Source: Mobula hypostoma
Lineage: Eukaryota
Reading direction: 5' to 3'
Assembly: GCF_963921235.1 (NCBI RefSeq)
Contig: NC_086107.1
Location: 113,338,001-113,402,000 of the forward strand
Length of the DNA: 64,000 bases
Made by a program: the position numbers and the translations under genes. Numbering within the stretch: the first letter of the stretch is position 1; each line of letters begins with the position of its first letter. Below the pieces are notes generated by a model. The model was not told where the DNA came from. It ran no database searches and saw only the letters and a list, made by a program, of their open reading frames with translations. Shown here in pieces: positions 1 through 60,499 of this stretch.

Positions 1-144
1 TCCTGTAGGTAGGTGACCAGAACTGTGTACAATACTCCAAATTATGGTGTATCATTGTCTTACACAACTTCAACATAACATCCCAACACCCATACTCTTC
101 ATCTCTCCACACTCTCTTAGTCTGGGTTCTTCGCCCTTCCTTTT

Positions 145-182
145 CAGTCCTGATGAAGGGTCTCTGCCCTGAAATGTCGACT
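145..182 (+). ncRNA. Minimal type I hammerhead ribozyme motif in a Penelope pLTR repeat
   Basis: CAGUC-CUGAUGA-AGGG-UCUCUG-CCCU-GAAA-UG-UC-GACU: helix I AGUC/GACU, intact core, 4-bp helix II. Confidence 0.65.
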
Positions 183-929
183 CTTTATTCACTTCCATAG
201 ATGCCGCCTGACGTACTGAGTTCGTCCAGCATTTTGTGTGTGTTACCTTTACTCAGCGCCCTGATTAATAAACTCCAACGTGCCAAAAGTTCTCTTTACA
301 ACCATGTCTCCTGTGATGCCACGTTGAAAACATTATTTCCTTCTCCGAAACTACTTCCCTTTCTCCCATTGTCCACTCTCCTCTCCAATCAGACTCCTTC
401 TTCTTCAGCCCTTTATCCTTTTTCCACCAATCACCTCCCAGTTTCTCATGTCATCCTCACTTCCCCTACCCTCCTGGCTTCTCCAGTGTGTACACCTCCT
501 CCTCCTCCCCCTCACCTCCTCCTTCCCCTCACCTCATCTCCTCCTCTGGCTTCTTCACCCTTCCTTTGAGGTCCCATTGGAGAGTCTCGGCCCACTCACC
601 CTTCATTCCTCTCCCTAGAGGCTGCCTGACCTGCTGAGCTCCTCCGGCATTTTGTGGGTGTTGCTCCGGATTTCCAGAGGAATTGCAGATCTGTTTCCCA
701 GATCCCTTTGTGGTACTACACATCCGTTGTCAGGGAGAAACGTGAAAACTCCACTGAGGCAGCATCAGAGGTCAGGACTGAACCTGGGTCACTGGTGCTG
801 TGGGGTGTCACCCTTACCAGCACCGCCCCGCCGTGATGCGTCAGCTGGCAGCTCTCTCTCTCTACATATGTTCACTCCTTCTCTCTTTCCCTCTTTCCCC
901 CTCTCTGTCTGGTAATCACACCTATGAGA

Positions 930-1375
930 GCAACACGCACAAAATGCTGGAGGAGCTCAGCAGGTCAGGCAGCACCAGTGGAAATGAATCAACAGTCAAC
1001 GGTTCAGGCTGGGCTCTTCATCAGGACTGAAAAGAAAGGGGGTAGGTGGCAGAATGAAAAGGTGGGGAGCGGGGAAGAAGACAGGTGAAGTCAGGTGGTT
1101 GTGAAAGGCAAAGGGCTGGAGAGGAAGGCATATAATAGGCGAGGAGGAGAAAGGGAAGGAGGATGGGGCACCTGGGGAGGTGATAGGCAGATGAGGAGAA
1201 GAAGTAAGAGGCCAGAGTGGGGAATAGAAGAAGAGGGGAGGTGAAGAAAAAATTCGGAAGGAGAAGTCAATGTTCATGCCATCAGGTTGGAGGCTGCCCA
1301 GACAGAATATAAGGTGTTGCTCCTCCACCCTGAGAGAGGCTTCATTGTTGGACTGGGAATTGGCCCACAGGAAAT
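930..1375 (-). mobile_element. Neptune-type Penelope-like element 3' fragment
   Basis: GIY-YIG C-terminal remnant [28 protein letters not shown], then a pyrimidine tract and pLTR repeat. Confidence 0.7.
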
Positions 1376-2991
1376 TCACAGGGCATGTTTCTGCACTGTA
1401 TGTTGCATGAAGGCCACTGAGTGTATGTTGGTCTTCTGCTGCCGTAGCCCATCCACTTTAAAATTCGACACGTTGTGTGTTAAAGGGCATCTCTAAGCAC
1501 ATGTCTGTTGTCACCTTCCTGTCATCTTCAACCAGTCTGGCCATTCTCCTCTGATCTCTCTCATTTACAAGGTGTTTCCACCCACAGAGCTGCCACTCAC
1601 TGGATGTTTTTTGCTTTTTTTGCACCATTCTCTGTAAACCCTATAGAGACTGTTGTGCATGAAAACCCCAGGAGATCAGCAGTTTCTGAGATACTCTGAC
1701 CACCCTATCTGGCACCAACAATCATTCCACGGTCAAAGCCACTTAAATCACATTTCTTCCCCATTCTGATGTTTGGCCTGAACAACAACTGAACCTCTTG
1801 ATCATGTCTGCATATTTTTTGAGCATTAAGCCGCTGCCATGTGATTGGCTGATTAGATATTTGCATTAAGAAGGAGTGCAGGTGTACCTAATAAAGTGGC
1901 CACTGACTGTACAGTACTGTGCAAAAGTCTTAAGCATGTATATAAATGATATCGTATCTGTTAAATAGGGGCAGTGGATATTTCTGATTTGATGGAGAAT
2001 AGACGAGAAAGCACAGAGGAACATCTGGAGAAATTTCTGAAACGCCTGTTCGCTGCTGTCGTTACTGTGTGGTTGGGAATCTTTCGGAGGGTAGGCCTCA
2101 AAATCCCCGGCCTTGCCTGCTATTGGCGACTGAGAAGGAGGTCGAATCGTTTGGACAGAGATGGCGTTCAGTATTCGGTGTCGGAGAGCTGATCAGAGCT
2201 CGAAGTTTTCGGATGACTCAGAGTCGGACTGTGGTCGGGTATGGCAGGGAGAGTTTTTCTTTCTTCTCCCGTCTGCGTCAGATGTGGGACATTTAAGAGA
2301 CTTTGAACTTTACTGCTCTCATGGACTTCTTCATCAAATTATGGTATTGTTGCACTGTTGTAACTATATATTATAATTATGTGGCTTTGTCAGTTTTTCC
2401 AGTCTTGGTCTGTCCTGTGTTTTGTGATATCACACCGGAGGAAATAATGTATAATTTCTTAATGCATGTACTACTAAATGACAATAAAAGAGGACTACGT
2501 GTCTTCATAATCTAAATATAGCTAGGAGCTAAGAGTTTTACACAGTCCTGTAGTAATTTTATGTATTGTACTGTACTACTGCCACAAAAAAACAAATTTC
2601 CTGACATGTGAGTGATGATAAACCTGATTCTGATATGGATCTCTATTGTGGACAGAGAGTGGGAAGGGGCAGGGAGAGGGGAATCATGGTTGGGAAAAGG
2701 GGAAGGGAGAGGGGAGGGAGCGGGAAGCACCAGAGAGACATTTTGTGTTGATCAATAAACCAATTATTTGGAATCAAATGACCTTGCCCGGTGTCTCAGG
2801 GCTGGGGGTGTCTGCACCCACGCCACCCCCTGCCCCTGGCTCTCCTCCTCTGCCATCTGTCCCACATCTTCCCCACAGGGCTCTACCCTCACCATTCCCA
2901 ACATCCTTTGCTCCCGCCAGATTAGCAAACTGGCTCTCCACCCTACGTTGACAAATACAGTAGTGTGCAAAGCTCGTAGACACTCTGGGAT

Positions 2992-3300
2992 TAAGGCATC
3001 TGTTAGTCTTGCGAGACCATGGATCTGCGCCTGGAAAGTCTTCACTCTCCAGGGCGCAGGCCTGGGCAAGGTTGTATGGAAGACCAGCAACTGCCCATGC
3101 TGCAAGTCTCCCCTCTCCACGACACCGATGTTGTCCAAGGGAAGGGCATTAGGACCCAGACAGCTTGGCACCGGTGTCGTCGCAGAGCAATGTGTGATTA
3201 AGTGCCTTGCTCAAGGACACAACACATTCCCTCGGCTGGGGCTCGAACTCATGATCTTCAGGTTGCTAGTCCAATGCCTTAACCACTTGGCCACGTGCCC
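2992..3300 (-). mobile_element. tRNA-derived SINE with a CORE-like centre and probable RTE-type tail
   Basis: Head gggcacgtggccaagtggttaagg (A box), gagttcgagccc (B box), then tgtgtccttgagcaaggcactt. Confidence 0.7.
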
Positions 3301-4318
3301 ACACGCTATATCTCTAAGACTTTTGCACTGTACTGTACATAGGGCTTTCAACATTGCAAAATGGCTGAAGGTGTTTGACAGGCAAGTTACCAAACAAAAG
3401 GTGGCACCAAGCTATAAAAACAAACGGGTCAAAGTTCGAAAAGAGGTGTGTGTCAACGAGGAGGGAGTAGGGATGGGTAGGGAGGTAGGAAACCTTGAGG
3501 GTGGGAGGACTGGAGGAGGAATTCTTGCTGAAGAGATATGCAGACGAGCATTTGAATCATCAAGGCACTGGGCACTGGACCAAGAACCGGTGGATGTGAC
3601 CATGTGGGCAGATACTTTGTGGTCTTAACGGATGTGCTGTTCCAAAGGGATTCTTCCCTAAACTCACTGGCTTTAGGAGCTTGTTGAGGAAATGTCAGAG
3701 ATTAGCAACTGGTCAGCAGAATGTCGACTGCTGGCAGATTACACTCAGAGGGACAAAATGACATGACGTTTGGTGGAGTGGGGCCAAGGAAGGACCGGGA
3801 GCCATTAAATGACGCTGTAATGGCGTTGCCAGTGGCTGTGTAGCATGGTGTCCGTGCTCGGGTTGGGGGCTAGCCACTCCTGGCAGTGCTGCTCTCCGCT
3901 GTTCGACCGGTGGAATGACAGGCTGGATTGCCGGGAGCTGTACCATCAACCTCATGTCGCTCAGGGTCTGGGATTGTACACGAGTTCTCTTGCGTAACAA
4001 TGTGTGTGCGCTTTTTTTAATCTCTCGCTGATGTGAATGTATGTTGTGCACCTTGGCCCCACAGGAACGCTGACTCATTTGACTGTATCCACGTATAGTC
4101 TGAATGATAACTAAACTTGACTTGGTTATGCTCGCCACTTGGCAAACGAGAAGGAAAATGGGGTAAACACGAGTGATAATCATGCCTCATCTCTGCAATC
4201 ATTTCACATCTCATCTTTCACTCTCTTCCTGTGACACTGGAGACGCCGGCGTGGCCAATTTCAACAGCGTGCCCAGCACGGCCCTGTGCCAGCATGGCAC
4301 GGGAACCACGTCACTCAC

Positions 4319-4590
4319 CTTTTTCCTCGGTCGCTCCCCAGCCCGTGACCCAGCACAGCTGGCCTGCTTCGAAGACGTGCGTCGTGGCAGGGAGGCAGAT
4401 CGGGCAGATGGTTGGCGCGAGGGGCACGGGCTGGTCTAACTTGAGGAGGGCCACGTCGTTGCTGGATGTTTCTCCATCATAGTAAGGGTGGACAATGATT
4501 CTCTGTACCTTGAAGCTGAGTTCGTTACTGCCCACGGTGCTTAACTTGAACTTGCCAAGATAGACCGTCCAAAACTCTGGTGGTGCATAA
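4319..4590 (-). CDS. TMPRSS6: TMPRSS6 exon (about exon 16), catalytic Asp
   Basis: 272 nt; WTVYLGK...[22 protein letters not shown]...PICLP...[12 protein letters not shown]; acceptor ccccttgcag, donor G|gtgagt. Confidence 0.94.
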
Positions 4591-7500
4591 CTGCAAGGGG
4601 AGGTGGAGGAGGAGTCTAGATCATAAAACACTTCAGCACAGTACAGGCCTTTGTTCCAATCACTTAATCTACTCCAAGATCAATCCAACTCTTTCTTCCA
4701 TGGTCTTCTACCATCTCCTATCAGATTCCCCCTTCTCCAGCCCTTTATCTCTGTCACCAATCAACTTCCCAGCTCTTTACCTCACCCCTGGTTCCACCTA
4801 TCACCTACCATCTCGTACTTCTTCCTCCCCCTCCTCCCATCTTCTTGCTCTGACTTCTCATCTTTGTTTTCCCAGCCCAGATGAAGGGCCTCAGCCCAAA
4901 ACATTGATTCTTTACTCTTTTCCATAGATGCTGCCTGGCTGCTGAGTTCCTCCAGCACTTTCTGTGTGTTGTTCGGATTTCTTGTGTCTGCAGATTTTCT
5001 CGTTTCGATGTAATCCTTCCCTCCTTCATTGCCCTCCATTTTTCTTCCATCCACGTGCCAATCTAAAAGTTTCTTAAGTGTCCCTAATGTATCTGCCTCT
5101 ACCACCACCCCTGGCAGTGCGTTCCACGCACTCACCATTCTCTGTGTAACAATACTACCTCTGACCTCCCCCCTATACTTTCCTGCAATCGTCTTATTAC
5201 TATGGCCTCCTTGTATTAGCTATTTCCACCCTGGAAACCGTCTCTGGTTGTCAACTCTCTCTATGCCTGTTATCATCTTATTCACCTCTATCAAGTCACT
5301 TCTCATTCTCCTTCATTCTACAGAGAAAACCTTGAGCTCCATCAACCAATCTTCAAAAGACTTGCAACACACATCAAAGTTGCTGGTGAATGCAGCAGGC
5401 CGGGCAGCATCTCTAGGAAGAGGTACAGTCGACGTTTCAGGCCGAGACCCTTCGTCAGGACTAGTAAGGGTCTCGGCCTGAAACGTCGACTGTACCTCTT
5501 CCTAGAGATGCTGCCTGGCCTGCTGCGTTCACCAGCAACTTTGATGTGTGTTGCTTGAATTTCCAGCATCTGCAGAATTCCTGTTGTTTGCGTTCAAAAG
5601 ACCTGTCTTCTAGTTCCGGCAGCATCCTGGTAAATCTCCTCTGCACCCTCTCTAAAGCTTCCACGTCCTTCCAATAATGAGATGACCAGAACTGAACACA
5701 ATGCTCCAAGTGTGGTCTAACAAGAGTCTTACAGTCACAACATTACCTCATGGCTCTCAAGCTCAATCCCCTGTGATGGCAATCACCATTTGCATTCTTA
5801 ATCCCTCTATCAACTTGCAAAGCATCTCTGAGGGATTAACGGATGTGGACCAGAAGACCCCCTGTTTCTGCTATGAATCCTTCCATTAACCCAGCACTTT
5901 GCCTTCAATCTTGACCTTTCAAATCCAATTGTAATCAGAGCCTGAAGATTCACTGGAATGATTCCGGGAATGAGAGGGTTAACATATGAGGAACGTTTGT
6001 CTGCTCTTGGACTGTATTCCTTGGAGTTTAGAAGAATGAGGGGAGACCTCATAGAAACATTTCGAATGTTGAAAGGCATGGACAGAGTGGATGTGGCAAA
6101 GTTGTTTCTCATGATGGGGGAGTCTAGTACGAGAGGGCATGACTTCAGGATTGAAGAGCGCCCATTCAGAACATAGATGCGAAGAAAATTTTTTTAGCCA
6201 GAGGGTGGTGAATCTATGGAATTTGTTGCCACGGGCGGCAGTGGAGGCCAAGTCATTGGGCGTATTTAAGGCAGAGATTAATAGGTATCTGAGTAGCCAG
6301 GGCATCAAAGGTTATGGTGAGAAGGCGGGGGAGTGGGACTAAATGGGAGAATGGATCAGCTCATGATAAAATGGCAGAGCAGACTCGATGGGCCGAATGG
6401 CTGACTTCTGCTCCTTTGTCTTATGGTCTTCATAGTGGTTTGATCCTGGACTGGACGCCAGGAGCCTCTGAGGGGGGAGCTGGAGGGTGTTGTAAGGGGG
6501 TAACACGAGGTGAGGTTGATAGAAGAGTTTGACGTTGATCAGTTCTGCACATCTATGCTCACATCAGTCTACTGATGCGCAGTAGAGAGTACCCTGACAG
6601 GTTGCATCACTGTATGGTATGGAAACTGCACGGCAGTGGACAGGAAGGTCCCACAGCAGGTAATGAAAACTGCCCAGTGTATCACTGGCACCAGCCTACC
6701 CCCAGTCAAGGACATATATACAGAAAGGTGCTGGAAAAGGGCCAGCAACGTCATGAAGGGTCCCACACACCCTGCTCACTGACTGTTTGTCCCACTCCCA
6801 TCAGGGACGATGCTACGTAGCACCCACAGCAAGACCACCAGACGCACAAGCCGTTCCTTTCCCCAAGCAGTAAGGCCGATCAACACCAAATGACATGAAA
6901 TAGTTTTGAATCTTGGATCTACCTGCCGGGGAAGCAGTGGGCTGCGGACAGCACCCAGTGTTCATTGATCAGCATCCCTCCGCAGACGTGCTGGCCGTAG
7001 ATCTGCAGGCTCGCTTGCCAAGGCCACTCCCCCTCCGTTGAATTGGTCCCGCCAACAATTCGGCTCTTGCTCATCTGAAGGCCGCATTCTGAAGAACGAG
7101 GAAGCCACTTGTTAATTGGGATCAGAATCGGGTTTTTTGTCACTGATGCATGTCGTGAGATTTGTTGTTTTGCTGAAGCAGTACAGTGCAATACAAAGCT
7201 TCAATAAGAACCTGTTAACCAAAATCGTGCCAGTAGAGATCAAAACAGCAAGGCAGTGTTCATGGACCATTCAGAAACCAGGGCGTGTCCTCTTCTCATC
7301 ACTACCATCAGGGAGAGAGTACAGCAGCCTAAAGACACACACTCAGGAACAGCTTCTGCCCCCCTGCCATCAGATTTGAATGGACAATGAACCCATGAAC
7401 ACTACCTCACTAATGTTTTATCCCTTTCTGTCAATACTAATTATTTAATTTCATTTTTATTTACATTGTTAGAGTGATTTTTGGGTTTACGACAGAAACT

Positions 7501-10500
7501 GACTTTGGTTACTGGTCTTCCCATCTGAAAGTGTATTGTGCATTTAATTTGGAGTGCAGCTCTGAACAACAGTTTGCTAAAAGCTGTGAATCCCGGTCCA
7601 GGCAATGCTGATTAAAATTCATTTGGATGTCTGTGGTGTGGCTGTGAAGGTTGTATGTAGTTTCAAAGAAAGCATTGTCCATACATTGTAAGTATGGAAT
7701 TGTCCTTTGATGTTTGGCACATAAAATATGGAGCCCCATGATGGGTTAGCAGACCTTTCCATCAAAAGTGTCTCCATATGATACCTGCTGTACTTTGTTT
7801 CGTTGATTGAAAATACGGCTTTGTATCTACCAGTGAGAAAGCCTACAGGTGCTGGAAATCCAAAACGGCAAACACAACAAAATGCTGGAGGAATGCAGCA
7901 GGCAACATCTATGGAAATGAATATAGTGCCTACAAAAAGTATTCGTCCCCTTTGGAAGTTTCCATGTTTTATTGTTTTACAACATTGAATCACAATTGGT
8001 TTAATTTGGTGTTTTAGACACTGATCAACAGAAAAATATTCTTTCGCGTCAAAGTGAAAACAGATCTCTACAAAGTGATCTAAATTAATTACAAATATAA
8101 AACACAAGATAATTGATTGCATAAATATTCACCCCCTTTAATCATAGCAAATAATCACTAGTGCAGTCAATTGGTTTTAGAAGTCACATAATTGGTTAAA
8201 TGGAGATCACCATGTGCAGTTAAGGTGTTTCAATTGATTGCAGTAAAAATACACCTATATTTGGAAGGCCCAGCTGCTGGTGAGTCAATATCCTACACCT
8301 CGAAGATAAAAGAACACTCCAAACAACACCGCGAAAAGGTTGTTGAAAAACACAAGTCAGGAGATGGATATAAGAAAATGTCCAAGTCACTGAATATCCC
8401 TTAGAGTACTGTTAAGTCAATCATCAAGAAATGGAAAGAATATGGCACAGCTGTAAATCTGCCCAGAGCAGGCCATCCTCAAAAACTGAGTGACCGTGCA
8501 AGAAGGGGACCGGTGAGGGAGGCCACCAAGAGACCTATGACACCTCTGGAGGAGTTACAAGCTTCAGTGGCTGACATGGGAGAGACTGCACATACAACTG
8601 TTGCCCGGGTGCTTCATCACTCGCAGCTTTATGGGGGAGAGTGACAAAGAGAAAGCCACTGTTGAAAAAGAACTCCTGTGAAATCTCAGCTAGAGTCTGC
8701 CAGAAGGCATGTGAGAGACTCTGAAGTCAGCTGGAAGAAGATTCCACGATCTGATGAAATCAAAATTGAGTTTTTTTGGCCATCAGATTAAACACTATAT
8801 CTGGCATAAACCAAAGACCACACATCATCAAAAACATAACATCCCCATTGTGAAGCACGGTGGTGACTGCATCATGCTGTGGGATGCTTCATTGCAGCAG
8901 GCCCTGGAAGGCTTGTGAATGCAGCAAAATACAGGGAAATCCTGGAGAAAATCACGATGCAGTCTGCAAGAGAACTGTGACTTGGGAGATTTGTTTTCCA
9001 GCAAGACATAAAGCATAGAGCCAAAGCTACACAGGAATGGCTTAAAAACAACAAATTAATGTCCTGGAATGGCCAAGTCAGAGTCCAGACCTCAATCCAC
9101 TTGAGATTTTTTGGCTGGATTGAAAAGGGTTGTTCACTCACGATCCCCATGCAATCTGACAGAGCTTGAGCAGTTTTGTAAAGAATGGGGAAAAGTTACA
9201 ACATCCGGATGTGCAAAGCTGATAGAGACCTATCCACACAGACTCAAGGCTGTAATTGCTGCCAAAGGTGCATCTACTAAATACTGACTTGAAGGGGGTG
9301 AGTAATTATGAACCTACTATTTTGAGTTTAATAATTGTACTACTTTCAGACCAATTGGTAGAAATTGTTTTCACTCTGACACAAAAGAGACTTTTCTGTT
9401 GATCAGTGTCAAAAAATGCAAAATTAAATTCGCTGCGATTCAATGTTATAAAACAATAAAACATGAAAACTTCCGGGAGTGGGGGGAGGGGTAGTGAAGA
9501 CTTTTTATAGGCACCATGGGTAGTCGATGTTTCAGTCGCTGGTCACTCTCCGCAGCCCACTGCTTCCCCAGCGGGTAGATCCAGGATTCAAGGCTCATGA
9601 TGAAAGGTCTCGGCCCCAAATACTGGCCATTTAGTCCCTCTCCGTAGTTGCTGAGATCCCTTCGCCACCCTGTGTGCGCTACTATGGACCTCCAGCATCT
9701 GCTGAGTCGCTCGTGTTGGTGAAATCTTTGGTTAGATTCAAAAGGGCATAATTTTCCAGTGAAACAATATGTATTCAGGATGTTCCAACCTTACTGCAGA
9801 TAAGCAAGTGCAGCAATCAATCAAATGTGTTCCCAAATTATATTTTCTATTTAAAGTCAGTATAGTCAAATTAGAAACAGGAGAATGCTGGAAATCCAGA
9901 GCACCACACACAGAAGGCTGGAGCAACTCAGCGGGTCAGACAGCATCTATGGAAATGAATAAACAGCTGACATTCCAGGCTAGGACTGGAAGACATCAAA
10001 ATAATAATGTTGTTGGGGGGGAGAGGGGAAGGAGGCCCGATAGAAGGTGAAAGGTGAAGTCAAGTGGGCGGGAAAGGTCAAGGGCTGGAGATAAGGAATC
10101 TGATAGGAGAGGAACGTGGAAGGAGGAGGGAATGCATGGGGAGGTAATAGGCAGATGAGAAGAGGTAAAAGGCCAGAGTGCAGAATACAGGAAGCGGGGC
10201 GGAATTAGTTTACTTTAGGTTTAGAAGATGATGAGGGACGTTGATCGTGTGGGTAGCCAGAGGCTTTTCCCCAGGGCTGAAATGGCTAACACGAAGGGGC
10301 ATAGTGTTAAGGTGCTTGGAAACAGGTACTGAGGGGATGTCAGGGGTATGTTTTTCAGAGGGTGGTGGGTGCGTGGAATATAGGGTTTTTTAAGAACCTC
10401 TAAGATAAGAAAATGGAGCTTAGAAAAATAGTGGGCTGTGCGCTAGGGAAATTCTAGGCAGTTTCTAGAGTAGGTCACATGGTTGGCACAACATTGTGGG

Positions 10501-11668
10501 CCGAAGGGCCTGTAATGTGCTGTAGATATATATGTTCTATGTTCTATGGATGGAGAAATCAATATTCATGCCATCAGGTTGGAGGCTACCGAGACGGAAT
10601 ATAAGGTGTTGCTCCTCCACCCTGAGGGTGGCCTCATCTTGGCACAAGAGGAGGCCGTGGATCGACATGTCGGAATGGGAATTAAAATGTTCGGCCACTG
10701 GGAAGTCCCTCTTGTGGCGGACGGTGCGGAGGTGCTCGATGAAGCGCCCCCCCCCCCGCAAATTTACGTGGGTCTTATCAATGTAGAAGAGGCCGGATTG
10801 GGAGCACTGAACACAATGGACGACCCCAGCAGATCCACAGGTGAAGTCTTGCCTCACCTGGAAGGGCTGCCTGGGGGTCTGAATGGAAGTGAGGGGGGAG
10901 GTGAATGGGCAGGTATAACTCTTCGGTTGCTTGCGGAGATAATTGCTGGGAGAAAAATTAGTGGGGGAAGGACTTACTGTAATTTATAGTTTTTATCATT
11001 ACAAATTGCAATGTACGGCCGCCACAAAACAATAAATTTCACGACATATGCCAGTGATACTAAATCTGATTCTGATTCAGAAATCGGAAGGCAGAGGGGA
11101 AAAAGCTGTTACTGAATTGTTGACTGAGTGTCTTCAGGCTCCTGTACCTCCTCCCTGATGGTAGCAATGAAAAGAGGGCACGTCCTGGGTGATGTATCAC
11201 CCCTCGCTGACACCCCCACCCACCCTGCCCAGACCTCAGAGGAACGGAGGGAAAAGGGAAACCTTGGACATGTCTGTTGCTGGCTTCATGGACCTAACCG
11301 GTATGGCTTTAGTTCGTGGGCTGTTTCCCTGCATCCGGTCTCTCTGTCTGTTTGTTCCCACGGCCGGTGGAGATTACTCACAGCACGGTCCTTACCACAG
11401 TTCCTCTCGTCACTGCCATCCTCACAGTCCCTCTCATAGTCACATTGAGGGTTTGCCTTCTTCACACAGGAGCCATCGTCGCACTTGTAGGTGAACAGGC
11501 TACATGGTACGGCTACAGGTGGAGCAGTCAATGACAATTTGTTAGATAGCACTCTCTCACACACACTCACACACTCACACACACACACACCTCTCACACA
11601 CACACATTCACTCACACGCTCATACACACACACTCACACACACACACTCACACACACACACACACACA

Positions 11669-11721
<53 letters not shown>

Positions 11722-12264
11722 TATATATACAGACATCCCACCCTGCAAAAACTCATTTCGGGGAGGTAGCAGCATCAATTTCCGGGAGAGGTGGGATGTC
11801 TGCAATAGAGTAGCTCCTGAGCAGTTAGCCAGCTAGTTTAAATAACGTTAGCTATGCTAATGAACGAATGACACCTGTTAAACTCACCTCAACACGTCTT
11901 TTACAGTCTTAACCCACCATGGGCAATAGAAAAGTCACTGTTGCAAACAGTGCAGCGAGCAACACTGTCATTATTTTTGACCCCTATTAGGCAGGGGTAC
12001 ACTTTAGTGTAGTCTGGGGTAACGTACATTTCATATTTTCTTTTTCTGAAACACTCTCGCTCTTGCTCTTGCTCTCACTCGCGCTTGCTTTCTTGCGCTT
12101 GCTCTCTCGCTCTTTCTCGTGCATTCTCTCACGCTCGCTCTCAAAAAATTCAATTGCCGGGACATTGTATATAATTTGCGGGCATCAGGGAACCACTATT
12201 AATATGCAGGAGACTCCCGGAACTTCCGGGAGAGGTGGGATGTCTGTGTGTGTGTGTATGTATG

Positions 12265-15300: not shown

Positions 15301-18300
15301 CGTAGCAGGTGATAGGTTAAGTCAGATGGGTAGGGTAGGGGTTAATGAAGTAAGAAGCTGGAAGGTGATAGGTGGAAAAGATAAAGGGCTGAAGAAGAAG
15401 GAATCTGATAGGAGAGGAGAGTGGACCATGGGAGAAAGGGAAGGAGGGTAGAGGCAGTGAGAGAGGGAGCATTCAACATGGGAAGATGAGGTCACCACAG
15501 ACACAATCCTGTAAGTATCACTGTCTTCACCAATAGAGGGTTATTACCATTCACTCCAATAATTTTAAAACTAGAAACATGATTGATTTATTTTACTCTT
15601 TCATAAGCACATACTTAAAACCGCTGTCAATATTTATGCTGAGAACTGAATGCAAACAGGAAAGGTGCTAACTTATAAAAACAGGAGATTATACAGATGC
15701 TGGAAATCCAGAGCAGCACACTTAGAATGCTGGAGAAACCCGGCAGGTCTGGCAGCATCTGTGGAGAGGAATAAACGGTCGATATTTCGGGTTGAGACCT
15801 TTCATCAGGACTGGAAAGGAAGGTGGAAGAAGGTAGGGGGAGGGGAAAGGAATTTATTGGGGGGGCAGGTGATGGGGCAAGCGGTTGTTGACCATTGCTG
15901 ATCAGGACTGACCCAGCCGGTTCTTTGGTATCAGAATTGGATTATTATTGTCCCAGCTACCGAGATACAGGGAAAACTAAGTTTTGCAAAAGTTGCTCCA
16001 TATTCAGATCATTTCAAACCATAAGTACTTTGAGGAAGTACATTGTGTGCATACATCTATTGACGCTTCCGGACACATCTTCAGTGATGTTTCTGGAATC
16101 ATCGGGTGTTTCGGGTCTTTCAACATCATACAACCTCCTCCAGGTGACCCAGCCGGGGCTGATCAGACCCCAGCTTGTGTCCAGATGGCTAGCTACTTAT
16201 GACTCCATGGCTCCCCTCTGTTGAGCCACAGCCATCTTGAGGCCCGCTCTGCCACATCGGTGGTACTGCGGATGGCTCTCCTCTTCCTCTCTCCCTTGAT
16301 GCCCAAAATGCTGAAGGCTCTAACTAAAGAACGGGCTACAAATCCCCTACAACCAGCCTCCACTGGGAGACACCTCGCTCTCCATCCAGCCTGCTGACAG
16401 TTGCTGACCAGTCCTGTGTACTTGGAGAGCTTCCTTTCAAAGGCCTCTTCCAAGCTATCTTCCCATGGGACTGTCAGCTCCAGCAGCACCACTTGCTTAG
16501 TCGACTCAGACACTAGGACAATGTCTGGTCGCAGGATGGTGGCTGCGATATGGTTGGGGAACTTCAGCTGCCCTTCGAGGTCCACCAACAGCTGCCAGTC
16601 CCTTGCAGAGGTCAGAATGCCTGCAGATGTTCTTTTGGCAGGTATTGGCTGCTCCCCAGCTCTGACAAAGGCAATGGTCTGTTTCCTTGTTTCCCTTAAA
16701 CATTTTAACTTTCACCCTTAACCCATGACCTTTAATTCTAGTCTCACACAATCTCAGTGGAAAAAGCCTGCTTGCATTTATCCTACCTATACCACTCATA
16801 ATTTTGTATTCGTCTGTCAGATCTCCTTCTTTCTCTTGTGCTCCAGGGCATAATGTCCTAAACTATTCAGCCTTTCCCTGTAACTCAGGCTATCATATCC
16901 TAGAAACGTCCTTGTACATTTTCTCTGTGGTCATTCAAGCTTATTGACATCTTTCCTGTAGGTAGGTGACCAGAAATGCACACAATCCTCCAAATTAGGC
17001 CTCACCACTTCAACACAACATCTCAACTCCTGTTCTTAATTCTTCGAATTATGAAGTTCAATGTGCTAAGACCACATCTAACTATGATACCACTTTCAAA
17101 GAATTACGGATTTCTATCGCCAGATCCCTCTGTTCTACCACAATCCTCAGGGCTCTACTGTTCACTGTTTAAAACCTACTCTGGTTGGTTATCCCAAAGT
17201 GCAACACCTCACATTTGTCTGTATTAAATTCCATCCGCCATTTTTCCAGCTGGTCCAGTTCCCATTACAAGTTTGAAAGCCCTCCTTGCTGTTCACTACA
17301 TCCCCAATCTTGGTGTCATCCACAAATCTGCTGATCCAGTTAAGCACAATATCATCCAGATCATTGATACAAATGACAAGTAACAAAGGACCCAGCTCCG
17401 ATCCCTGTGGTACCCGACTAGTCACGGGCCTCCAGTCAGAGAGGCAACCATCTACTTCCACTCTCTGTCTTCTCTTGCAAAGCCAGTGTCTAATCCAATT
17501 TACAACTTCATCCTGAATGCCAAAAGGCTGAACCCTCTTGACCAGCCTCCCATGTGGGACCTTGTCAAAGGCCTTGCTAATGTCCATGGAGACAACATGC
17601 ACTGCCTTGCCTTCATCAACTTTCCTGATAATTTCCTCGAAAAACTATAAGATTGGTTAGATATGACCTACCACGCACGAAGCCATGCTGACTACCCTTA
17701 ATGAGTCCCTGACTATCTAAATATTTATGTATCCAGTCCCTTTGACTTGGTAGCCTGAGTTATAGAGAAAGGCTGAATAGTTTAGGATGTTAATCTTTCT
17801 TTTCAAATCTTTTTATTGTATATAGGAAAAATAACATGAGTACATCGAAGTAACAACACTTACAATGCCTCAAAAAAACCCATCATCTTAAAGATTGAAA
17901 ACAAAATTTTGTGATAACAAAAAAAACCTACTGAGCAGAAAAGTGAGAGAAAAAAAAGAACCCATTAGGTGTACAACCCCGGAGCCATGCATCATACAAA
18001 AAGCTTCTAAAAATAAACATCAAACCGCCAGAAAGAAAAGAAAATATACTAAAAAAATTTACAATTAGATCGTGGAAAAATTATATCAATTAACTCAAAT
18101 GATAATAACGAGAAAATGAGCCCCATCTTTTCTCAAAATCAAATAAAGGTTCAAAGGTTTGACTTCTAATTTTCTCCAAACTAAGACATAGCATCACTTG
18201 AGAGAACCATTGTGACAAAGTGGGAGCTGATGTATCCTTCCACTTCAACAAAATGGCCCTCTTAGCTATCAATGTAACAAATGCAATAACATGTTGGTCA

Positions 18301-21300
18301 GACACAGAAATACCATGAATATTCTGAGGAACTATTCCAAAAAGCACAGTTAATTTATTAGGTTGTAAATTAATTTTAAGTGCTTTGGAAATTGTTGAGA
18401 AAACCGACTTCCAGAACTGTTCCAATATAGAACAAGACCAAAACATATGCGTCAGTATAGCTACCTCAGTTTTACATCTATCACAATGACTATCAACATT
18501 AGGAAAGATTTTAGAAAATCTCTCCTTTGTCAAATGATAACGATGTACAATTTTAAATTGACTCAATGAATGGCTAGCACAAATTGAAGAAGAGTTAACT
18601 AACTTCAATATCCGCAAGAGAAAGAGAAAGAGTTTAGGATGTTATGCCCTGGAGCACAAGAGAAAGAGGGAGATCTGACAGAAGTATACAAAATTATGAG
18701 TGCTGTAGATAGGATAAATTCAAAATCCAGTTATTTTGTAAATAACACTATTCTTTGCATTTCTGGTCAGATGCTAACTGCATTTCATTGGCTTTGTATC
18801 TGTACTCGGCACAATGACAATAAAGTTGAATCTAATCTAATTACAGTAACTTTCACACAACTGATATGAAGCTCATGTGTCTATAGTTTCCCAGCTCATT
18901 CTTAGAGCCTCTCAAACAACGGAACAACATTAGCTATCCTCCATTCCTCCAGCACCTCACCTGTTGCTAAGGACATGTTCAACATCTCTGCTAGGGCTCC
19001 TGCAATTTCTGTTCCCCCTCCCACGGGGTCCGAGGGAACACCTGGTCAGGCCCAGGGGATTTATCCACTCTAATTTGTCTCGAGGCAGCAAACACCTCCT
19101 CCTTTGTGACCTGTATATAAACAGGAATTAATGTACTCACACTTGAGGGACAACTTACTGCCGCCAGGTAACCCACCTTTGGGATGTGGGAGCACCAAGG
19201 GGAACCTACACTGTCACAGGGACCAGCACACACAGAATGCTGGGGGAACTCTGCAGGTCAGGCAGCATCTATGGAGGGAAATGAACAGTCAGCGTTTTGT
19301 GCCGAGACCCTCCAACAGCGGTCCATTACCCTCCATAGGTACTGCCTGGCCTGCTGAGTTCTTTAGAGTGTATTGGTCAAGATTTCCAGCATCCGTAGGA
19401 TTTTTCTGTGTCTCGGTCACAGGGGGAGTGTGCAAACTCCACGCAGACAGCACCCGACATCGGGACTGAATGCTGTGCAGCTGGAGAAGATTCCAGAGAT
19501 AGGGGTGGTGGATGTAGGGTGAACGCATTGAGGAGATTTAAACAGGAGAACAGTATTTACAAAATTAGAGCAACATGTCTTTCCATGGCCTCCTCTTCTG
19601 ACACCATTAGACCACTCTCAGGGAGGAGCAATGTCTAGGTAGCCTCCAACCCAATGAATATCAATTTCTCCTTCTGGTGATCTTCTTCTTCCTTTTCCTT
19701 TTCCCTTTCCTCTTCCCCAGTCTGGCCATTACCTCTTCCTATCACCTCTCCACAGTACTCCTTCTCTTCCCTGTCTCCCATGGTCCACTCTCCTCTCCTA
19801 TCAGATTCTTCCTTCTCCAGCCCTCTACCTTATCCATCCCCTTGGCTTCACCTGTCACCTTCCAGCTAGCCTCCTTCCCCTCCCCCACCTTTTCATCCCG
19901 GCTTCTTCCCCCTTCCTTTCCAGTCTTGATGAAGGGTCTCAGCCCGAAACGTCCATCGTTTATTCATTTCCACAGCTGCTGCCTGACCTGCTGAATTCCT
20001 CCAGTGCGTTACTCTGGATTTCCAGCACCTGCAGAATCTCGTGTTTAACATTGGACCTTGTCCGACAGCTGACCTCCCCCAACTCCCTCTGGGAAAGGTG
20101 CAAGGTGTTTTGTTTTACCACAGTTGTTCTCGTCCGCATTATTGCTGCAGTCTTTCAGGCCGTCGCACTCTGGGACGCACAGACCAGACACCGTGCAAAA
20201 GACACCATCAGGACAGGCTGCAACACAGACAGAGGAACAGTCAATGCAAAGCTGTAGTTTTGCAGATCCACTGTGAATGCCCACAAGAAAATGAATCTCA
20301 GGGTTGTGTATGGTGAGATATTTGTACAAATTTACTTTGAACCCTGTGGTATAAATGGGCACTTTTCCCATGGGGCTCTATTATCTGGCCTGATGCCTGT
20401 AACTAGATGAGTCACCCATAGGTGCTATCACATCCTACCAAATCCTGCCACAGCAGGTGTGGAATTTTACGTTTAATGAAAAGTGTTTGACAAAACCTGG
20501 CAATGATGATGGAAGATGAGAAAATGTGCAGAGACCTGTGATGAGGAAACCTGGAAATGGTGTGTGGTAATGGTGTTTGAAGTCATATTTTGCTCTCTAA
20601 TATCGACTCGCCACATCTGAGCAATTGGTCATTCTAGACCAAGAATCTGATTCTGAAAGTCTCTGGGATGACTCTATAAAACCCTGGTTAGACCACGCTT
20701 GGAATATTGCGTTCAGTTCTGGTAGGAAGGATGCAGAAGCTTCAGAGAGGTTGCAGAGGAGATTCCCCAGGGGTACTGCCTGGATTAGAGGGCATTTCTT
20801 GTGAAAATGGGCTGAGCGGGATAGGGCTTTTTTCTTTGTTGTGAAGGAGGATGAGAGGAGACTTGATAGAGGTGTACAAATGGATAAGAGGCACAGAAAG
20901 AGTGGATGGCCAGAGAATATTTCTCAGGGTGGAAGTGGTCAATACGAGGGGGCATAATTTTAAGGTGATTGGAGGAAAGCACAGGAAGGACCAATAAGGT
21001 TGTTATAGCCAGGGGTTGTTATGGGGACCAGTTCCCGCTACTTATTAAATGCTTCCAATGGCGTGCACCTCAAATAGCCTCTGACAACCGAGTCCAGCTC
21101 CTGGCCTTCATGTGTGGCTTAGTTACTAAGCCTGGTGGAACTATTTCTACTGACAGGAGAAGGGCAAAGGTGGGTTAATGGTGCTTTAAAGCCAATCATT
21201 TTGGGCAGATGGGGCTTGTCAGCCATGGTTGGCAGCTCATCCAGAAGGAAAACTCTAATCTCAACCCTCCGCTGCCTTGCGGCTACACCCACTCATGGGG

Positions 21301-27300: not shown

Positions 27301-30300
27301 GACCTCATTGAAACCTATCGTATCTTGAAAGGCCTCGATAGAGTGGATGTGGAGAGGATGTTCCCTGTGGTGGGGGAGTCTAGGACCAGAGGGCACAAGG
27401 TGGGCATCCTTTAAGAACGGAGAGGAGGAGTAATTTCTTTAGCCAGAGTGGCATAAATCTATGGAATTTGTTGTCATAGGCGGCTGTGGAGGCCAAATGG
27501 TTGGGTATATCTAAGACAAAGGTTGATAAATTCTTGATTGATCAGGGCATGAAGAGATACAGGGAGAGGGCAGGAGATTGAGGCTGAGAGGGAAATGGAT
27601 CAGCCATAATGAAATGGCGGAGCAGACTCAATGGGCCGAATGGCCTAATTCTGCCCCTGTATCTTACAGTCTTATGATCTATATCCACCCATGAGATTTA
27701 TTTTCTTCATTTTCTTGTGGGCAATCACAGCAAATACAAGAAACACAATAGAATCAATAAAAGATCATACCCAGCAGGACGGACAAACAACCGAGGTGCA
27801 AAAGACAACAAATATTGCAAGTACAAAAGACAAAACAAATAATAATAATAAATAAACAATAAATATCAAGAACGAGATGAAGAGTCCTTGCATGTGAGTC
27901 CACTGGTTGTGGGAACAGTTCAGTGATGGGACGAGTGAAGTTATCCCCTCTGGTTCAAGAGCCTGATGGTTGAGGGGGAATAACTGATCCTGAAACCTGG
28001 TGGTGTGGGTCCTGAGGCTCCTGTACCTTCCTTTTGTTAGCAGCACCAAGAAGAGAGGATGACCTACGTGGTGGGGGTCCCGAATGGCAAAGCTCCGTGT
28101 AGATGTGCTCAGTGGTGGGGAGGGCTTTACCTGTGATTGACTGGGCCAGATCCACTACTTTATGTAGGATTTTCCATTCAAGGGCATTGGTGTTTCCATA
28201 TCAGGCTGTGATGCAGTAAGTCAATATACAACAGGCGTCAGAGAACATTTCAGGAGTGCAGGAATTTGGTTATGTGTTTCATTGGAACGGGGCTGCATGA
28301 GGACATACCCGATCAAAACTTCTCCATGGACGGCTTCCAGACCGCTCCGGCTGACCGGAAGTGCACTGAGAGCGGTGAGCATAAAGGAGTTGGGTGCTTA
28401 CTGTTCTGGTTAACAACAGATGGTGCAATCTGGGTCATATTACGATCGAGGAACATGTTTGCAGACTGGATATTGAATTTTTTACTGTTGGACTTCGGCC
28501 ACATTCCACCGAGATACGACACTGGGCGGCACAGGAGGTCATTCCCGCCTGTGGCCATCGAATGTGCAGCTCCTCCCGTGGAGGGTCAGACACCCTGAGC
28601 CAATAGACTGGTCTTGGACTTATTTTCCATCTGGCATAGTTTGCATTTTGTTGTTTGATTGTTTGTGGTTTTTGTATTGCTATATTTACGCTCTATTCTT
28701 GGTTGGTGCGGCTGTAACGAAACCCAATTTCCCTCGGGATTAATAAAGTATATCTAGCTATCTATCTATCTATACTCTCCACTACACATTTCTAAAGCAT
28801 AACATCTAAAACTTTGACGTGCCAAATCTTGTGTGAACTCCGAAGGAATTAGAGGCACTGCCATGCATTCTTTGTAATTGCACTTACGCGCTGGCCCCAG
28901 GAGGACAGGTTCTCCAAAATAATAACATCAAGGAATTTGAAATTTCTGATCCTCCAATGAGGACTGGCTCATGGACCTCTGGTTTCCTCATCTTGAAATC
29001 AATAATCATCTTTTTGGCCTTGCTGACATTGAGTGAGGGGTTGTTGTTATGGCACTACCCGGCTGGATTTTTAATCTCCCCCCTCAATGCTGATTCGCCA
29101 CCACTTTTAATTGGGCCTACGTCAGTGGTGTAATCAGCAAACTGGAATATGGCGTTGGAGCTGTGCTTACCCACACAGTCCTAAGTGTAGACCGAGTAGA
29201 GCAGGGGGCTAAGCACCCAGCCTTGTGCTGACGGAGATTGTGGAGGAGATGTTGCTGCCAATCCCAATTTACTGGGGCCTGCAGGTGAGGAAACTGAGGA
29301 TCCAATTGTACAAGGAGGTATTGAGGCCAAGGCCTTGAAGCCTATTGATTAGTTTTGAGGGGATGATAGTACTGAATGCCGAGCTGTAGTCAATAAAGAT
29401 GCATCTTTGCTGCCCAGATGTTCCAGGGTCGAACGAAGACCCAGTGAGACGGCATCTGCCGTGGACCTGTTGCTCCGGTAGGTAAATTGGAATGGCTTCA
29501 AGTTGCTTCTCATGCAGGAATTGATCTGTTTCTTTGTCAAAAGGCTTCATTACTGTGGATGTAAGTGCTGCAGTAATTACCCTCAACCATCAGGCTCTTG
29601 AACAAACTTTACTCAACTTCACTTATCCCATCACTGAACCTATGGACTATCTTTCTTTCTTTATTATCATCATTTCTTTAGTTTTGTATTTGCACAGTCT
29701 GTTGTCTCTGGCACATTGGTTGATCACCCAAGGTGCTGCAGTCTTTCATTGACTCTGTTATAGTTATTATTCCATGATGGATTTACTGGGTATGCTCACA
29801 AGAAAACGATCCTCAGGGTTGTACAAGAGGACACATGTGTACTTTGATGACAGATTTACTTTGAACTTTAGTGTGGGTGTGCAGATCACTTACAGTGAAG
29901 TACCAGGTACAGTGGGCATTGGGTGGGTAATAGCTCGGAAAGTACGGCGTGCTGCAGTTGCCTTGAATGCCCCATTCTTCTCTCAAGGTGATGTTAGCAA
30001 AGCATTCTGAAACAAAAAAGACAAAGCCATGAGGATTTAATTTACACATTTAAATTGGCCACCCAGCTACAGGAAGAATGGAATTAAGCTGGAGGAGATA
30101 CAGGAAGGATGTTGCCCAGACTGGGGTTATGGGGAGAGACTGAATAGGCTGGACATAAACACAAGACATTCTGAAGATGCTGGAAACCCAGAGCAACACA
30201 CGAAATGCTGGAGAAACTCAGCAGGTCAGGCAGCATCTATAGAGAGGAATAAACAGTCGACAGTTCAGGCCTCAGCCATTCATCAGGACTTTTATTCCAT

Positions 30301-60491: not shown

Positions 60492-60499
60492 GTTATCGA

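What the first reader, a model, noticed from the sequence alone, without database searches (positions are those of the whole stretch)
9537..9591. Antisense copy of the catalytic-His exon end plus 5' splice site in the preceding intron: candidate editing or splice-masking element
Seen: + strand 9537-9591 matches the sense sequence of 6960-6906 (38 exon nt encoding [11 protein letters not shown] plus 17 intron nt starting gtagat) at 47/55, and 40/43 in the core. It is inverted and about 2.6 kb away in the same transcription unit, so the pre-mRNA can form a duplex over the His codon and the donor. Of the three core differences, one becomes a G-U wobble and two become A-C mismatches; one of these A's is exon position -2 (6924), the first base of the split Ser codon AG|T. 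Established: ADARs favour A-C mismatches, and the GluA2 R/G site is an edited A at -2 of a donor paired to an intronic complementary sequence. Inference: this could recode Ser to Gly or weaken the already weak AG|gtagat donor, and skipping this 166-nt exon would frameshift the protease. It may equally be a neutral accident.
Basis: partly seen in the sequence, partly recalled or inferred. Interest (0 to 1): 0.72.

Follow-up and report, generated by a model that had tools for sequence, protein, structure and literature searches.

The report
Backwards exon-end copy in TMPRSS6 intron
A ray's TMPRSS6 (matriptase-2) gene carries, in the intron before its catalytic-histidine exon, a single backwards 55-base copy of that exon's end and splice donor; it could pair with the original in the RNA, but the evidence so far fits an old, tolerated DNA-repair scar better than a regulatory switch.

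Summary
The + strand at 9537-9591 matches the sense strand of 6960-6906 at 47 of 55 bases, and the core 9546-9591 matches at 42 of 46. BLAST gives E about 1e-8 against the whole 3.5-Gb genome, and these are the only two copies. The gene is TMPRSS6 on the - strand, and the copy lies in the 4.3-kb intron upstream of the His exon. The predicted duplex is strong (-97 kcal/mol) and appears in the minimum-energy fold of 2.85 kb of pre-mRNA.

No function shows. In 2 of 2 transcript-bearing runs the dominant spliced form includes the exon, and the one listed mRNA contig (X10) shows no base change. The copy sits 3 nt from the truncated end of an interspersed repeat and 20 nt from a transposon end. It has no extended homology. 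It keeps the ancestral Ser codon that the exon has since changed. Two related species also carry it, and the window's lineage has lost pairing at its left end.

Best reading (about 0.6): a neutral relic of a short templated insertion. Low-level editing or splice modulation is not excluded, because only contigs were available, not reads.

The parts
9537..9591 (+). Inverted copy of the exon end plus donor (core 9546-9591). In the - strand pre-mRNA it is antisense to 6960-6906.
   Evidence: The + strand reads [12 protein letters not shown] in frame.
6906..6960 (-). Source segment: the last 38 nt of the His exon ([11 protein letters not shown] plus AG of the split Ser codon) and the first 17 nt of the next intron (GTAGAT...).
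6923..7088 (-). TMPRSS6 protease-domain exon carrying the activation site (RIVGG) and the catalytic His (AAHC); 166 nt.
   Evidence: tblastn with P0001; PDB best hit is TMPRSS6 9nrc_A at E 1.2e-21; spliced contig piece 6923-7088.
7089..11396 (-). Intron of about 4.3 kb that holds the copy. The joint 7088->11396 is flanked CT..AC on +, which is GT..AG on -.
   Evidence: table 5: X5 depth 11527.8, X10 depth 323.2, and 0 contigs in the DNA runs X6 and X13.
11397..11513 (-). Upstream exon (third LDL-receptor class A repeat).
4317..4590 (-). Next exon (S-YAPPEF...DVALL...WGATEEKG). Its first base T completes the AGT Ser codon.
9208..9516 (+). Transposon fragment 'A'. All copies end ...GGCAC(C/T)(A/G)-TA, which resembles a Tc1/mariner terminus by recall. 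It ends 20 nt left of the copy.
7954..8141 (-). Second member 'A-prime' of the same transposon family, inverted and of a different subfamily, with unrelated flanks. In the minimum-energy fold it pairs with A as a long imperfect hairpin nested inside the exon/copy duplex.
9595..9717 (+). Fragment 'B' of an abundant interspersed repeat that is at least 340 nt long. It has a natural terminus near 9717 and is truncated at 9595, 3 nt (GGC) from the right end of the copy.
9871..10202 (+). Longer member 'C' of the same repeat family, in the opposite orientation to B.

Best explanation
This is a relic of a short templated insertion. About 55 nt spanning the exon-intron junction of the TMPRSS6 His exon were copied once, in inverted orientation, into the upstream intron 2.6 kb away. 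The copy was made at the DNA level, or from unspliced RNA. It arrived as filler at the broken or truncated end of an interspersed repeat, through template switching during break repair or repeat insertion. It has since drifted without detectable constraint. The pre-mRNA can form the duplex on paper, but in the tissue sampled the donor is used normally and the dominant mRNA is unedited. Shown: the copy is real, unique, short, abuts a truncated repeat, is shared by three species, and the dominant splicing is normal. Inferred: the repair mechanism and the neutrality.
For: (1) There are only two copies in the 3.48-Gb genome. Only 1 of 13 TMPRSS6 exons in the window has such a copy.

(2) Homology stops at about 55 nt. 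Smith-Waterman tests of the sequence beyond the flanking repeats against the rest of the exon and intron do not exceed the shuffles in 4 of 4 comparisons. It is therefore not a decayed large duplication or a paralogue exon.

(3) The copy includes 17 intron nt, so it was templated by DNA or pre-mRNA, not by mRNA.

(4) Its right end lies 3 nt from the point where repeat B breaks off from its family consensus, while B's other end is a natural terminus. Its left end lies 20 nt from a transposon terminus. This is a junction-filler position.

(5) The substitution pattern is ordinary. The copy reads AGC (Ser) where the exon now reads GGC (Gly). All 7 other elasmobranch TMPRSS6 sequences in alignment A2 have Ser there, so the G-U wobble comes from a later change in the exon. 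The C facing exon -2 comes from an A>G change in the copy, because AG is conserved at that split codon.

(6) Relatives: contigs of organism B (X6, 9453-9954, 13 differences, 0 gaps) and organism C (X13, 9400-9887, 52 differences, 5 gaps) span the site, so the copy predates their split. In C, positions 9538 and 9543-9545 read like the exon (CACTGGGTG). The window's lineage has therefore lost 4 pairing bases at the left end, at least the neutral expectation for 55 nt.

(7) Splicing: in 2 of 2 transcript-bearing runs a spliced contig joins the exon to its upstream exon. The one listed mRNA contig (X10) runs on to the next exon with 0 other letters over the exon. The intron contigs over the copy (X5 9445-9963, X10 9474-9954) have 0 differences.

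(8) In human genes, conserved complementary regions are depleted at actively used splice sites (PMC8052449, passages). A selected duplex over a constitutive donor would be atypical.

(9) Germline templated insertions with junction microhomology are documented (PMC8421209, passages).
Against: The duplex is very stable (-97.4 kcal/mol) and is kept in the minimum-energy fold. It covers a functional donor and the catalytic-His codon, and it carries A-C mismatches in ADAR-friendly contexts, one of them exactly at -2 as at GluA2 R/G.

The copy has survived long enough to be shared by species about 10% apart at silent sites. That estimate rests on 5 synonymous changes among 8 exon differences and on 52 of 488 intron differences in X13.

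No difference inside the 46-nt core was listed for either relative. If that listing were complete it would suggest constraint. The table hid 739 rows and is demonstrably incomplete for this contig, showing 5 of its 52 differences.

Templated insertions described in the passages I read use templates within about 100 bp, not 2.6 kb.

No target-site duplication or clear microhomology was found. One search found only a 7-mer, with a chance expectation of about 0.2.

Contigs cannot exclude minor editing or exon skipping.
Confidence: 0.62

Rival explanations
1. Splice-site masking element. The intronic arm, transcribed first, pairs with the exon end and donor as they emerge. This hides the 5' splice site from U1 and diverts a fraction of transcripts to skipping of the 166-nt exon (a frameshift, so loss of protease) or to intron retention. 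It would act as a brake on matriptase-2 output.
For: The duplex covers -38 to +17 around the donor at -97.4 kcal/mol. It forms in the 2.85-kb minimum-energy fold, and a nested transposon hairpin brings the arms closer. The donor lacks +5G, being CAG|GTAGAT. The exon length of 166 is not a multiple of 3. The copy is shared by three species. Long-range structures generally obstruct the splice sites they cover (PMC8052449, passages).
Against: The dominant spliced form includes the exon in 2 of 2 transcript-bearing runs, at high depth (11,528 in X5). No skipping joint was listed, although 8446 joints were not shown. Conserved complementary regions are depleted at active splice sites in human genes. 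The window's lineage has lost pairing at the left end. The copy's position looks like a repair scar.
Confidence: 0.13
2. ADAR editing-site complementary sequence of the GluA2 R/G type. The duplex recruits ADAR, which deaminates the A at exon -2 (6924; Ser AGT to Gly GGT) and/or the intronic A at +10 (6913). This would recode the residue two after Pro-Gly and weaken the donor.
For: There are A-C mismatches at 6924 and 6913, each with a 3' G neighbour. The duplex is 46 bp or longer. The R/G site has the same geometry: the edited A is one nucleotide from the 5' splice site, faces a C in the ECS, and editing lowers splicing (PMC1920255, passages). A long imperfect transposon hairpin lies 20 nt away and could act like the distant editing inducer described for Gabra-3 (PMC3479170, abstract only).
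Against: The listed mRNA contig (X10) reads the genomic letter over the whole exon (0 other letters), and no other-letter row at 6924 or 6913 was listed for X5, X10 or either relative. The intron contigs over the copy are also unchanged. The C opposite 6924 is explained by a single ordinary transition in the copy. Known recoding ECSs are mostly local hairpins in neuronal genes and are deeply conserved, whereas this one is 2.6 kb upstream in a liver protease gene.
Confidence: 0.1
3. A rival on origin only: chimeric retro-insertion. A reverse transcriptase copying repeat B's RNA stopped at the position now at 9595 and switched to nascent TMPRSS6 pre-mRNA. It copied 55 nt across the exon-intron junction before the cDNA was joined to the target.
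For: On the + strand the order is [sense copy of the pre-mRNA] - GGC - [repeat B truncated at that end, natural terminus at the other]. This is the layout expected for a 5'-truncated retroelement with a template jump. The copy contains intron sequence, as pre-mRNA would.
Against: The class and polarity of repeat B are unknown. No poly-A or microsatellite tail and no target-site duplication were found. The model needs TMPRSS6 transcription in the germ line.
Confidence: 0.2
4. Remnant of a paralogous serine-protease exon or pseudogene on the + strand, or a chance match.
For: The + strand reads [12 protein letters not shown] followed by GTAGAT.
Against: The ORF is only 26 codons. No other protease motif exon lies on the + strand in the window. 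Homology does not extend beyond the 55 nt. The intron part of the junction is copied too. The genome holds no third copy, and the genome-wide E-value is about 1e-8.
Confidence: 0.02

Closest known systems
Templated insertions / filler DNA from template switching in break repair or replication (MMBIR-type templated insertions, PMC8421209; short template-switch mutations, PMC5453318 and PMC8794818)
   Same: A short stretch copied from a nearby template in the same locus. The inverted orientation creates a perfect-stem potential at birth. It is a single copy and lies at a junction between unrelated sequences. Such events persist as germline variants when harmless.
   Different: The template is 2.6 kb away, whereas the passages and abstracts I read describe templates within about 100 bp or local hairpins. 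The event is too old for junction microhomology to be read. I saw passages of PMC8421209 and only the listing and abstracts of PMC5453318 and PMC8794818.
GluA2 (GluR-B) R/G editing site and its intronic ECS (PMC1920255)
   Same: An exonic A one nucleotide from the 5' splice site faces a C in an intronic complementary sequence. Editing there would give Gly and would weaken the donor.
   Different: The R/G ECS is a local hairpin in the downstream intron, is conserved, and editing is observed. Here the arm lies 2.6 kb upstream, the dominant mRNA is unedited, and conservation beyond close relatives is unknown.
Conserved long-range complementary regions that modulate splicing (PCCRs, PMC8052449; Drosophila long-range structures, PMC2724269)
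   Same: Kilobase-range intramolecular pairing within one pre-mRNA overlaps a splice site. The expected effect is obstruction of that site.
   Different: In the catalogue such pairs are depleted at active splice sites, and they are defined by conservation. Here the donor is constitutive and highly used, and conservation is shown only among three close species. PMC2724269 was seen as listing and abstract only.
Inverted exon-fragment copies in introns noted earlier in this scan (e1-7591644 tolloid CUB4; e1-7590277 slit LRR exons)
   Same: An antisense copy of the gene's own exon and donor in a nearby intron. Follow-up readers judged those to be tolerated relics.
   Different: Those copies are longer (289 nt or whole exons with flanks) and lie in other phyla. 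They are unchecked AI notes, not evidence.

Membership tests
ADAR editing-site complementary sequence (ECS) | An intronic sequence base-pairs with the exon around the target A to form dsRNA | tested here: met
   RNAduplex gives -97.4 kcal/mol against -34.1 +/- 4.4 for 300 shuffles. 49 of 55 positions pair in register in the minimum-energy fold of 2851 nt. These are predictions only.
ADAR editing-site complementary sequence (ECS) | A-to-I (read as G) in RNA at the paired A, absent from DNA | tested here: inconclusive
   Of the 2 transcript-bearing runs, only X10 has a listed mRNA contig over the exon, and it shows 0 other letters over 6923-7088. No row at 6924 or 6913 was listed for any run. 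Contigs drop minor variants and 739 rows were hidden.
ADAR editing-site complementary sequence (ECS) | The complementary arm and its pairing are conserved across species | tested here: inconclusive
   The arm is present in 2 of 2 related species laid (X6, X13). The left 9 nt lost pairing in the window's lineage. Core differences could not be read from the truncated table. No distant species was available.
Long-range RNA structure regulating splicing | Complementary arms within one pre-mRNA overlapping a splice signal | tested here: met
   Both arms lie within the TMPRSS6 transcription unit, and the duplex spans donor positions -38 to +17.
Long-range RNA structure regulating splicing | A measurable effect on exon inclusion or site usage | tested here: inconclusive
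   Only the exon-included form was listed in X5 and X10. 8446 joints were not shown, and there were no read-level data or perturbation.
Templated insertion (template-switch / filler DNA) | The inserted stretch matches a nearby template and has no other source in the genome | tested here: met
   42 of 46 in the core and 47 of 55 overall against a template 2.6 kb away. The genome holds no third copy.
Templated insertion (template-switch / filler DNA) | The stretch is short and discrete, with abrupt ends at a junction of unrelated sequences | tested here: met
   No extension in 4 of 4 flank tests. The copy lies 3 nt from the truncation point of repeat B and 20 nt from a transposon terminus.
Templated insertion (template-switch / filler DNA) | Microhomology at the junctions | tested here: inconclusive
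   There is only a weak resemblance (TTCAAG against the repeat consensus TTCCAG) at the right junction, seen by eye. The event is old and the junctions have mutated.
Templated insertion (template-switch / filler DNA) | An empty site in an outgroup | not testable with these tools
   Only three closely related species could be laid, and all three carry the copy. No other elasmobranch genome is searchable here.
Chimeric retro-insertion by RT template switching | A 5'-truncated retroelement with foreign RNA sequence, in the same sense, fused at the truncation | tested here: inconclusive
   The layout fits. The class and polarity of repeat B are unknown, and no tail or target-site duplication was found.

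The most novel reading that the evidence does not exclude
The accidental inverted insertion was co-opted. Brought close by the neighbouring transposon hairpin, the 46-bp duplex over the TMPRSS6 His-exon donor is a liver ADAR and splicing substrate. Through editing at -2 and +10, or through simple masking, it would set the fraction of productive matriptase-2 mRNA. That would be an R/G-like editing/splicing rheostat in an iron-regulatory protease of rays, born from a repair scar and young enough to show how such elements originate.
Probability: 0.12. Interest if true: 0.7.

Novelty: new member of a known kind. Interest (0 to 1): 0.3.

Why it matters
If the copy is neutral, it is a clean, datable example of a kilobase-range inverted templated insertion. 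It instantly created a 50-bp exon-intron duplex over an essential splice donor and was tolerated for a long time. That bears on how much long-range pairing a constitutive splice site can withstand. It also bears on how editing or splicing guide sequences might first arise. The copy also preserves the ancestral Ser codon of the exon, as a small molecular fossil. If the copy is functional, it would be a rare vertebrate case, outside neuronal genes, of an R/G-like site controlling a protease that governs iron balance.

Tried and rejected
- **Paralogue or pseudo-exon on the + strand.** Rejected. There are no other protease-motif ORFs on +, no extended homology, and no third genomic copy.
- **One large inverted duplication carrying both the transposon and the exon junction.** The mirrored order (exon - A' ... 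A - copy) suggested this. Rejected: A and A' belong to different subfamilies (A is 76.5% identical to the copy at 31900, but 62.8% to A'), and their flanks beyond the shared terminus are unrelated.
- **The copy as part of a repeat family.** Rejected. Only its flanks hit other chromosomes.
- **Rfam scan of 6000-12000.** It gave one sub-threshold chance hit (EBv-sisRNA-1, 21 bits against a gathering score of 58) and nothing at the copy.
- **Target-site duplication search.** It found only a 7-mer.
- **Sequencing runs.** No RNA holder is listed on record. X5 and X10 are labelled RNA only as a guess. I treat them as transcript-bearing because they alone hold the GT..AG joint 7088->11396.
- **Conservation of the 46-nt core in relatives.** This could not be judged. 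The other-letters table hid 739 rows and showed only 5 of the 52 differences of the X13 contig.
- **Exon-skipping joints.** These could not be judged, because 8446 joints were hidden.
- **Earlier-findings look-ups by place and by sequence.** Both returned nothing.
Full report
**What is there.** The window's - strand carries TMPRSS6 (matriptase-2).
- A 122-codon ORF from 4314-4679 found TMPRSS6 proteins of rays and sharks. The best hit, P0001, is 93% identical over the ORF.
- tblastn of P0001 against the window gives mostly 93-100% identical exons from 55545 down to 4317.
- The 55-residue exon peptide hits the solved TMPRSS6 chain 9nrc_A at E 1.2e-21.
- The exon of interest is 7088-6923 ([14 protein letters not shown]...[11 protein letters not shown], then AG of a split codon). 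The donor is CAG|GTAGAT.
- The next exon starts with T at 4590, so the split codon is AGT, Ser.
- The upstream exon is 11513-11397.
- A 2950-nt contig in run X10 joins 11513-11396 | 7088-6923 | 4590-4317. The joint 7088->11396 (GT..AG on the - strand) is present in X5 (depth 11,528) and X10 (depth 323). It is absent from the two DNA runs.

**Is the match real.** Yes.
- Ungapped, 47 of 55 bases agree. BLAST reports 42 of 46 for 9546-9591 against 6951-6906, with E 4.4e-13 in the window.
- Searched against the whole 3.48-Gb assembly, each segment finds only itself and the other, at E 3e-9 to 9e-9.
- Among 13 TMPRSS6 exons with 60-nt flanks, this is the only one with a second copy in the window.
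- The pairing details are as described: A-C at 6913/9584 and 6924/9573, and G-U at 6927/9570. There is also a G-G at 6949/9548, and pairing is poor in the leftmost 9 nt.

**Could the RNA pair.** On paper, easily.
- RNAduplex gives -97.4 kcal/mol for the two 55-mers. For 300 shuffles of the intron arm the mean is -34.1 +/- 4.4, and the best shuffle reaches -47.6.
- In the minimum-energy fold of the 2851-nt pre-mRNA stretch 9700->6850, 49 of 55 positions pair in the expected register.
- The duplex encloses a long imperfect hairpin made by two inverted members of one transposon family (9517-9219 with 7923-8482). That hairpin would shorten the effective distance between the arms.
- These are thermodynamic predictions. 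They take no account of co-transcriptional kinetics, proteins or helicases.

**What surrounds the copy.** The copy is an island between repeats.
- To its left, 9208-9516 belongs to a transposon family with other members at 31958-32266, 30665-30885 and 7954-8141, and on other chromosomes (L004, L007).
- All members end at the same terminus...GGCAC(C/T)(A/G) followed by TA, and then diverge. From memory this resembles a Tc1/mariner end. No tool gave that label.
- To its right, after three bases (GGC), 9595-9717 is a fragment of an abundant interspersed repeat that is at least 340 nt long.
- That fragment has the family's natural terminus near 9717. It breaks off from the consensus exactly at 9595, where the other copies continue.
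- A longer member of the same family lies inverted at 9871-10202.
- Beyond these repeats there is no further similarity to the exon or its intron. In 4 of 4 Smith-Waterman comparisons the score was within the shuffle range.
- The mirrored order (exon, transposon A', transposon A, copy) suggested a single large inverted duplication. This fails. A and A' belong to different subfamilies, and their flanks are unrelated.

**How the differences arose.**
- The copy reads ...TTC CCC AGC GG|GTAGAT, where the exon reads ...TTC CCC GGC AG|GTAGAT.
- In the alignment of nine TMPRSS6 proteins, the Gly of CFPGS occurs only in P0001, which shares it with the window. All seven other elasmobranch sequences have Ser there.
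- The copy therefore preserves the ancestral Ser codon, and the G-U wobble is a later exon substitution.
- The split codon begins with AG in the window and encodes Ser or Arg in the orthologues. The C that faces exon position -2 therefore comes from an A>G transition in the copy.
- All core differences are single transitions, apart from one G/C transversion.

**Relatives.**
- One search for public runs listed runs of the window's species (organism A). It also listed relatives holding 41% (organism B) and 21% (organisms C to F) of the sampled 31-mers.
- I laid X5 and X10 (organism A), X6 (B) and X13 (C) on 4200-11600 at 85% likeness or better.
- Single contigs span the site in both relatives: X6 over 9453-9954 with 13 differences and no gaps, and X13 over 9400-9887 with 52 differences and 5 gaps. 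The copy therefore predates the split of the three species.
- Organism C is about 10% diverged at silent positions. Its exon shows 8 differences, of which 5 are synonymous third positions.
- In C, positions 9538 and 9543-9545 read A and GTG, which makes the copy's left end CACTGGGTG, identical to the exon there. B shares only the A at 9538.
- The original copy was therefore at least 55 nt long and closer to the exon. The window's lineage has since lost four pairing bases in two or three events.
- That is at least the neutral expectation for 55 nt on one lineage.
- No difference inside 9546-9591 or 6906-6960 was listed for any run. The table kept only the best-supported rows, hid 739 others, and showed only 5 of the 52 differences of the X13 contig. 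I draw no conclusion about conservation of the core.

**Editing and splicing.**
- X5 and X10 are labelled RNA only as a guess. They alone carry the spliced joint, so they hold processed transcripts.
- The X10 mRNA contig has 0 other letters over 6923-7088. In X5 the exon is covered at depth 12,234, and no other-letter row at 6924 was listed.
- Intron contigs covering the copy show 0 differences: X5 9445-9963 at depth 17.9, and X10 9474-9954 at depth 5.8. Their depth is similar to that of other intron contigs (5 to 23).
- The region is therefore represented like ordinary pre-mRNA or residual DNA.
- The dominant product is thus the normal, unedited, exon-included mRNA.
- Contigs drop minor variants and 8446 joints were not shown. 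Partial editing or minor skipping remains open.

**Interpretation.** The position is a junction, 3 nt from a truncated repeat end. The copy is short with abrupt ends, contains intron sequence, is unique, changes by ordinary transitions and has decayed at the left end. All of this points to a one-off templated insertion that was tolerated.
- Two origins fit. One is DNA-templated filler during repair or end joining. Germline templated insertions with microhomology are documented (PMC8421209, passages). Short template switches that create hairpins are also documented (PMC5453318 and PMC8794818, listing and abstracts).
- The other is a reverse-transcriptase jump from the repeat's RNA to nascent TMPRSS6 pre-mRNA. 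I cannot decide between the two, because the class and polarity of the repeat are unknown and no target-site duplication survives.
- The 2.6-kb template distance is longer than in the cases I read about.

**Against a purely neutral view.**
- The duplex is unusually strong and sits on a constitutive donor.
- In human genes, conserved complementary regions are depleted at active splice sites (PMC8052449, passages). That can be read either way: such a duplex is either harmless in vivo or under some use.
- The geometry copies the GluA2 R/G site closely. There, the edited A lies one nucleotide from the 5' splice site, faces a C in the ECS, and inosine lowers splicing (PMC1920255, passages).
- The adjacent long hairpin recalls distant editing inducers (PMC3479170, abstract only).
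- I give the neutral relic 0.62, splice masking 0.13 and ADAR editing 0.10. The last two may overlap.

**Earlier notes of this scan.** They describe similar inverted exon copies in a tolloid gene and a slit gene, both judged to be relics. They also describe an insect nicotinic-receptor case judged to be a true editing guide. These are unchecked leads and were not used as evidence.

**Verdict.** The most likely reading is an old repair scar, which is of modest interest.

Noticed in passing
window 9219-9517 (+) and 7923-8482 (-): Two inverted members of one transposon family lie in the same intron. In the minimum-energy fold they form a long imperfect hairpin (stacks of 21, 42, 76, 46, 13 and 32 pairs). 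This is an ordinary kind of intronic dsRNA, but it sits 20 nt from the copy.
   Followed up: partly
window 9595-9717 (+) and 9871-10202 (+): A truncated member and a longer member of one abundant interspersed repeat lie in opposite orientation about 150 nt apart. Many more members occur across the window, for example at 927-1241, 15694-15810, 19784-20027, 30177-30270, 51110-51444 and 52426-52757. The repeat's class was not identified.
   Followed up: partly
window 7121-7195 (-): A 72-75-nt repeat lies just upstream of the His exon's acceptor. It has copies at 2562-2634, 11005-11076 and 46122-46192, plus a 44-nt partial match at 32361-32404, at 75-80% identity.
   Followed up: no
window 6925-6927 versus 9568-9570: The exon codon GGC (Gly) is unique to this lineage. 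Seven other elasmobranch TMPRSS6 proteins have Ser there. The intronic copy still reads AGC, so it fossilises the ancestral state two residues after the catalytic-His motif.
   Followed up: yes
window 9543-9545: Three adjacent bases read TCA in the window, where organism C's contig, like the exon, reads GTG. No difference was listed here for organism B. This looks like a single multinucleotide mutation in the copy.
   Followed up: partly
window 6991-6993 and 7073: In organism C's contig the exon differs by Gln to Gly (two changes in one codon) and Met to Thr, besides 5 synonymous changes. The Thr matches the consensus of other elasmobranchs.
   Followed up: partly
window 1-4316 and 55546-64000: Residues 699-795 (including the GDSGGP exon) and residues 1-114 of the P0001 TMPRSS6 protein found no match in the window. 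The gene therefore seems to run off the window at its 3' end, and perhaps at its 5' end too.
   Followed up: no
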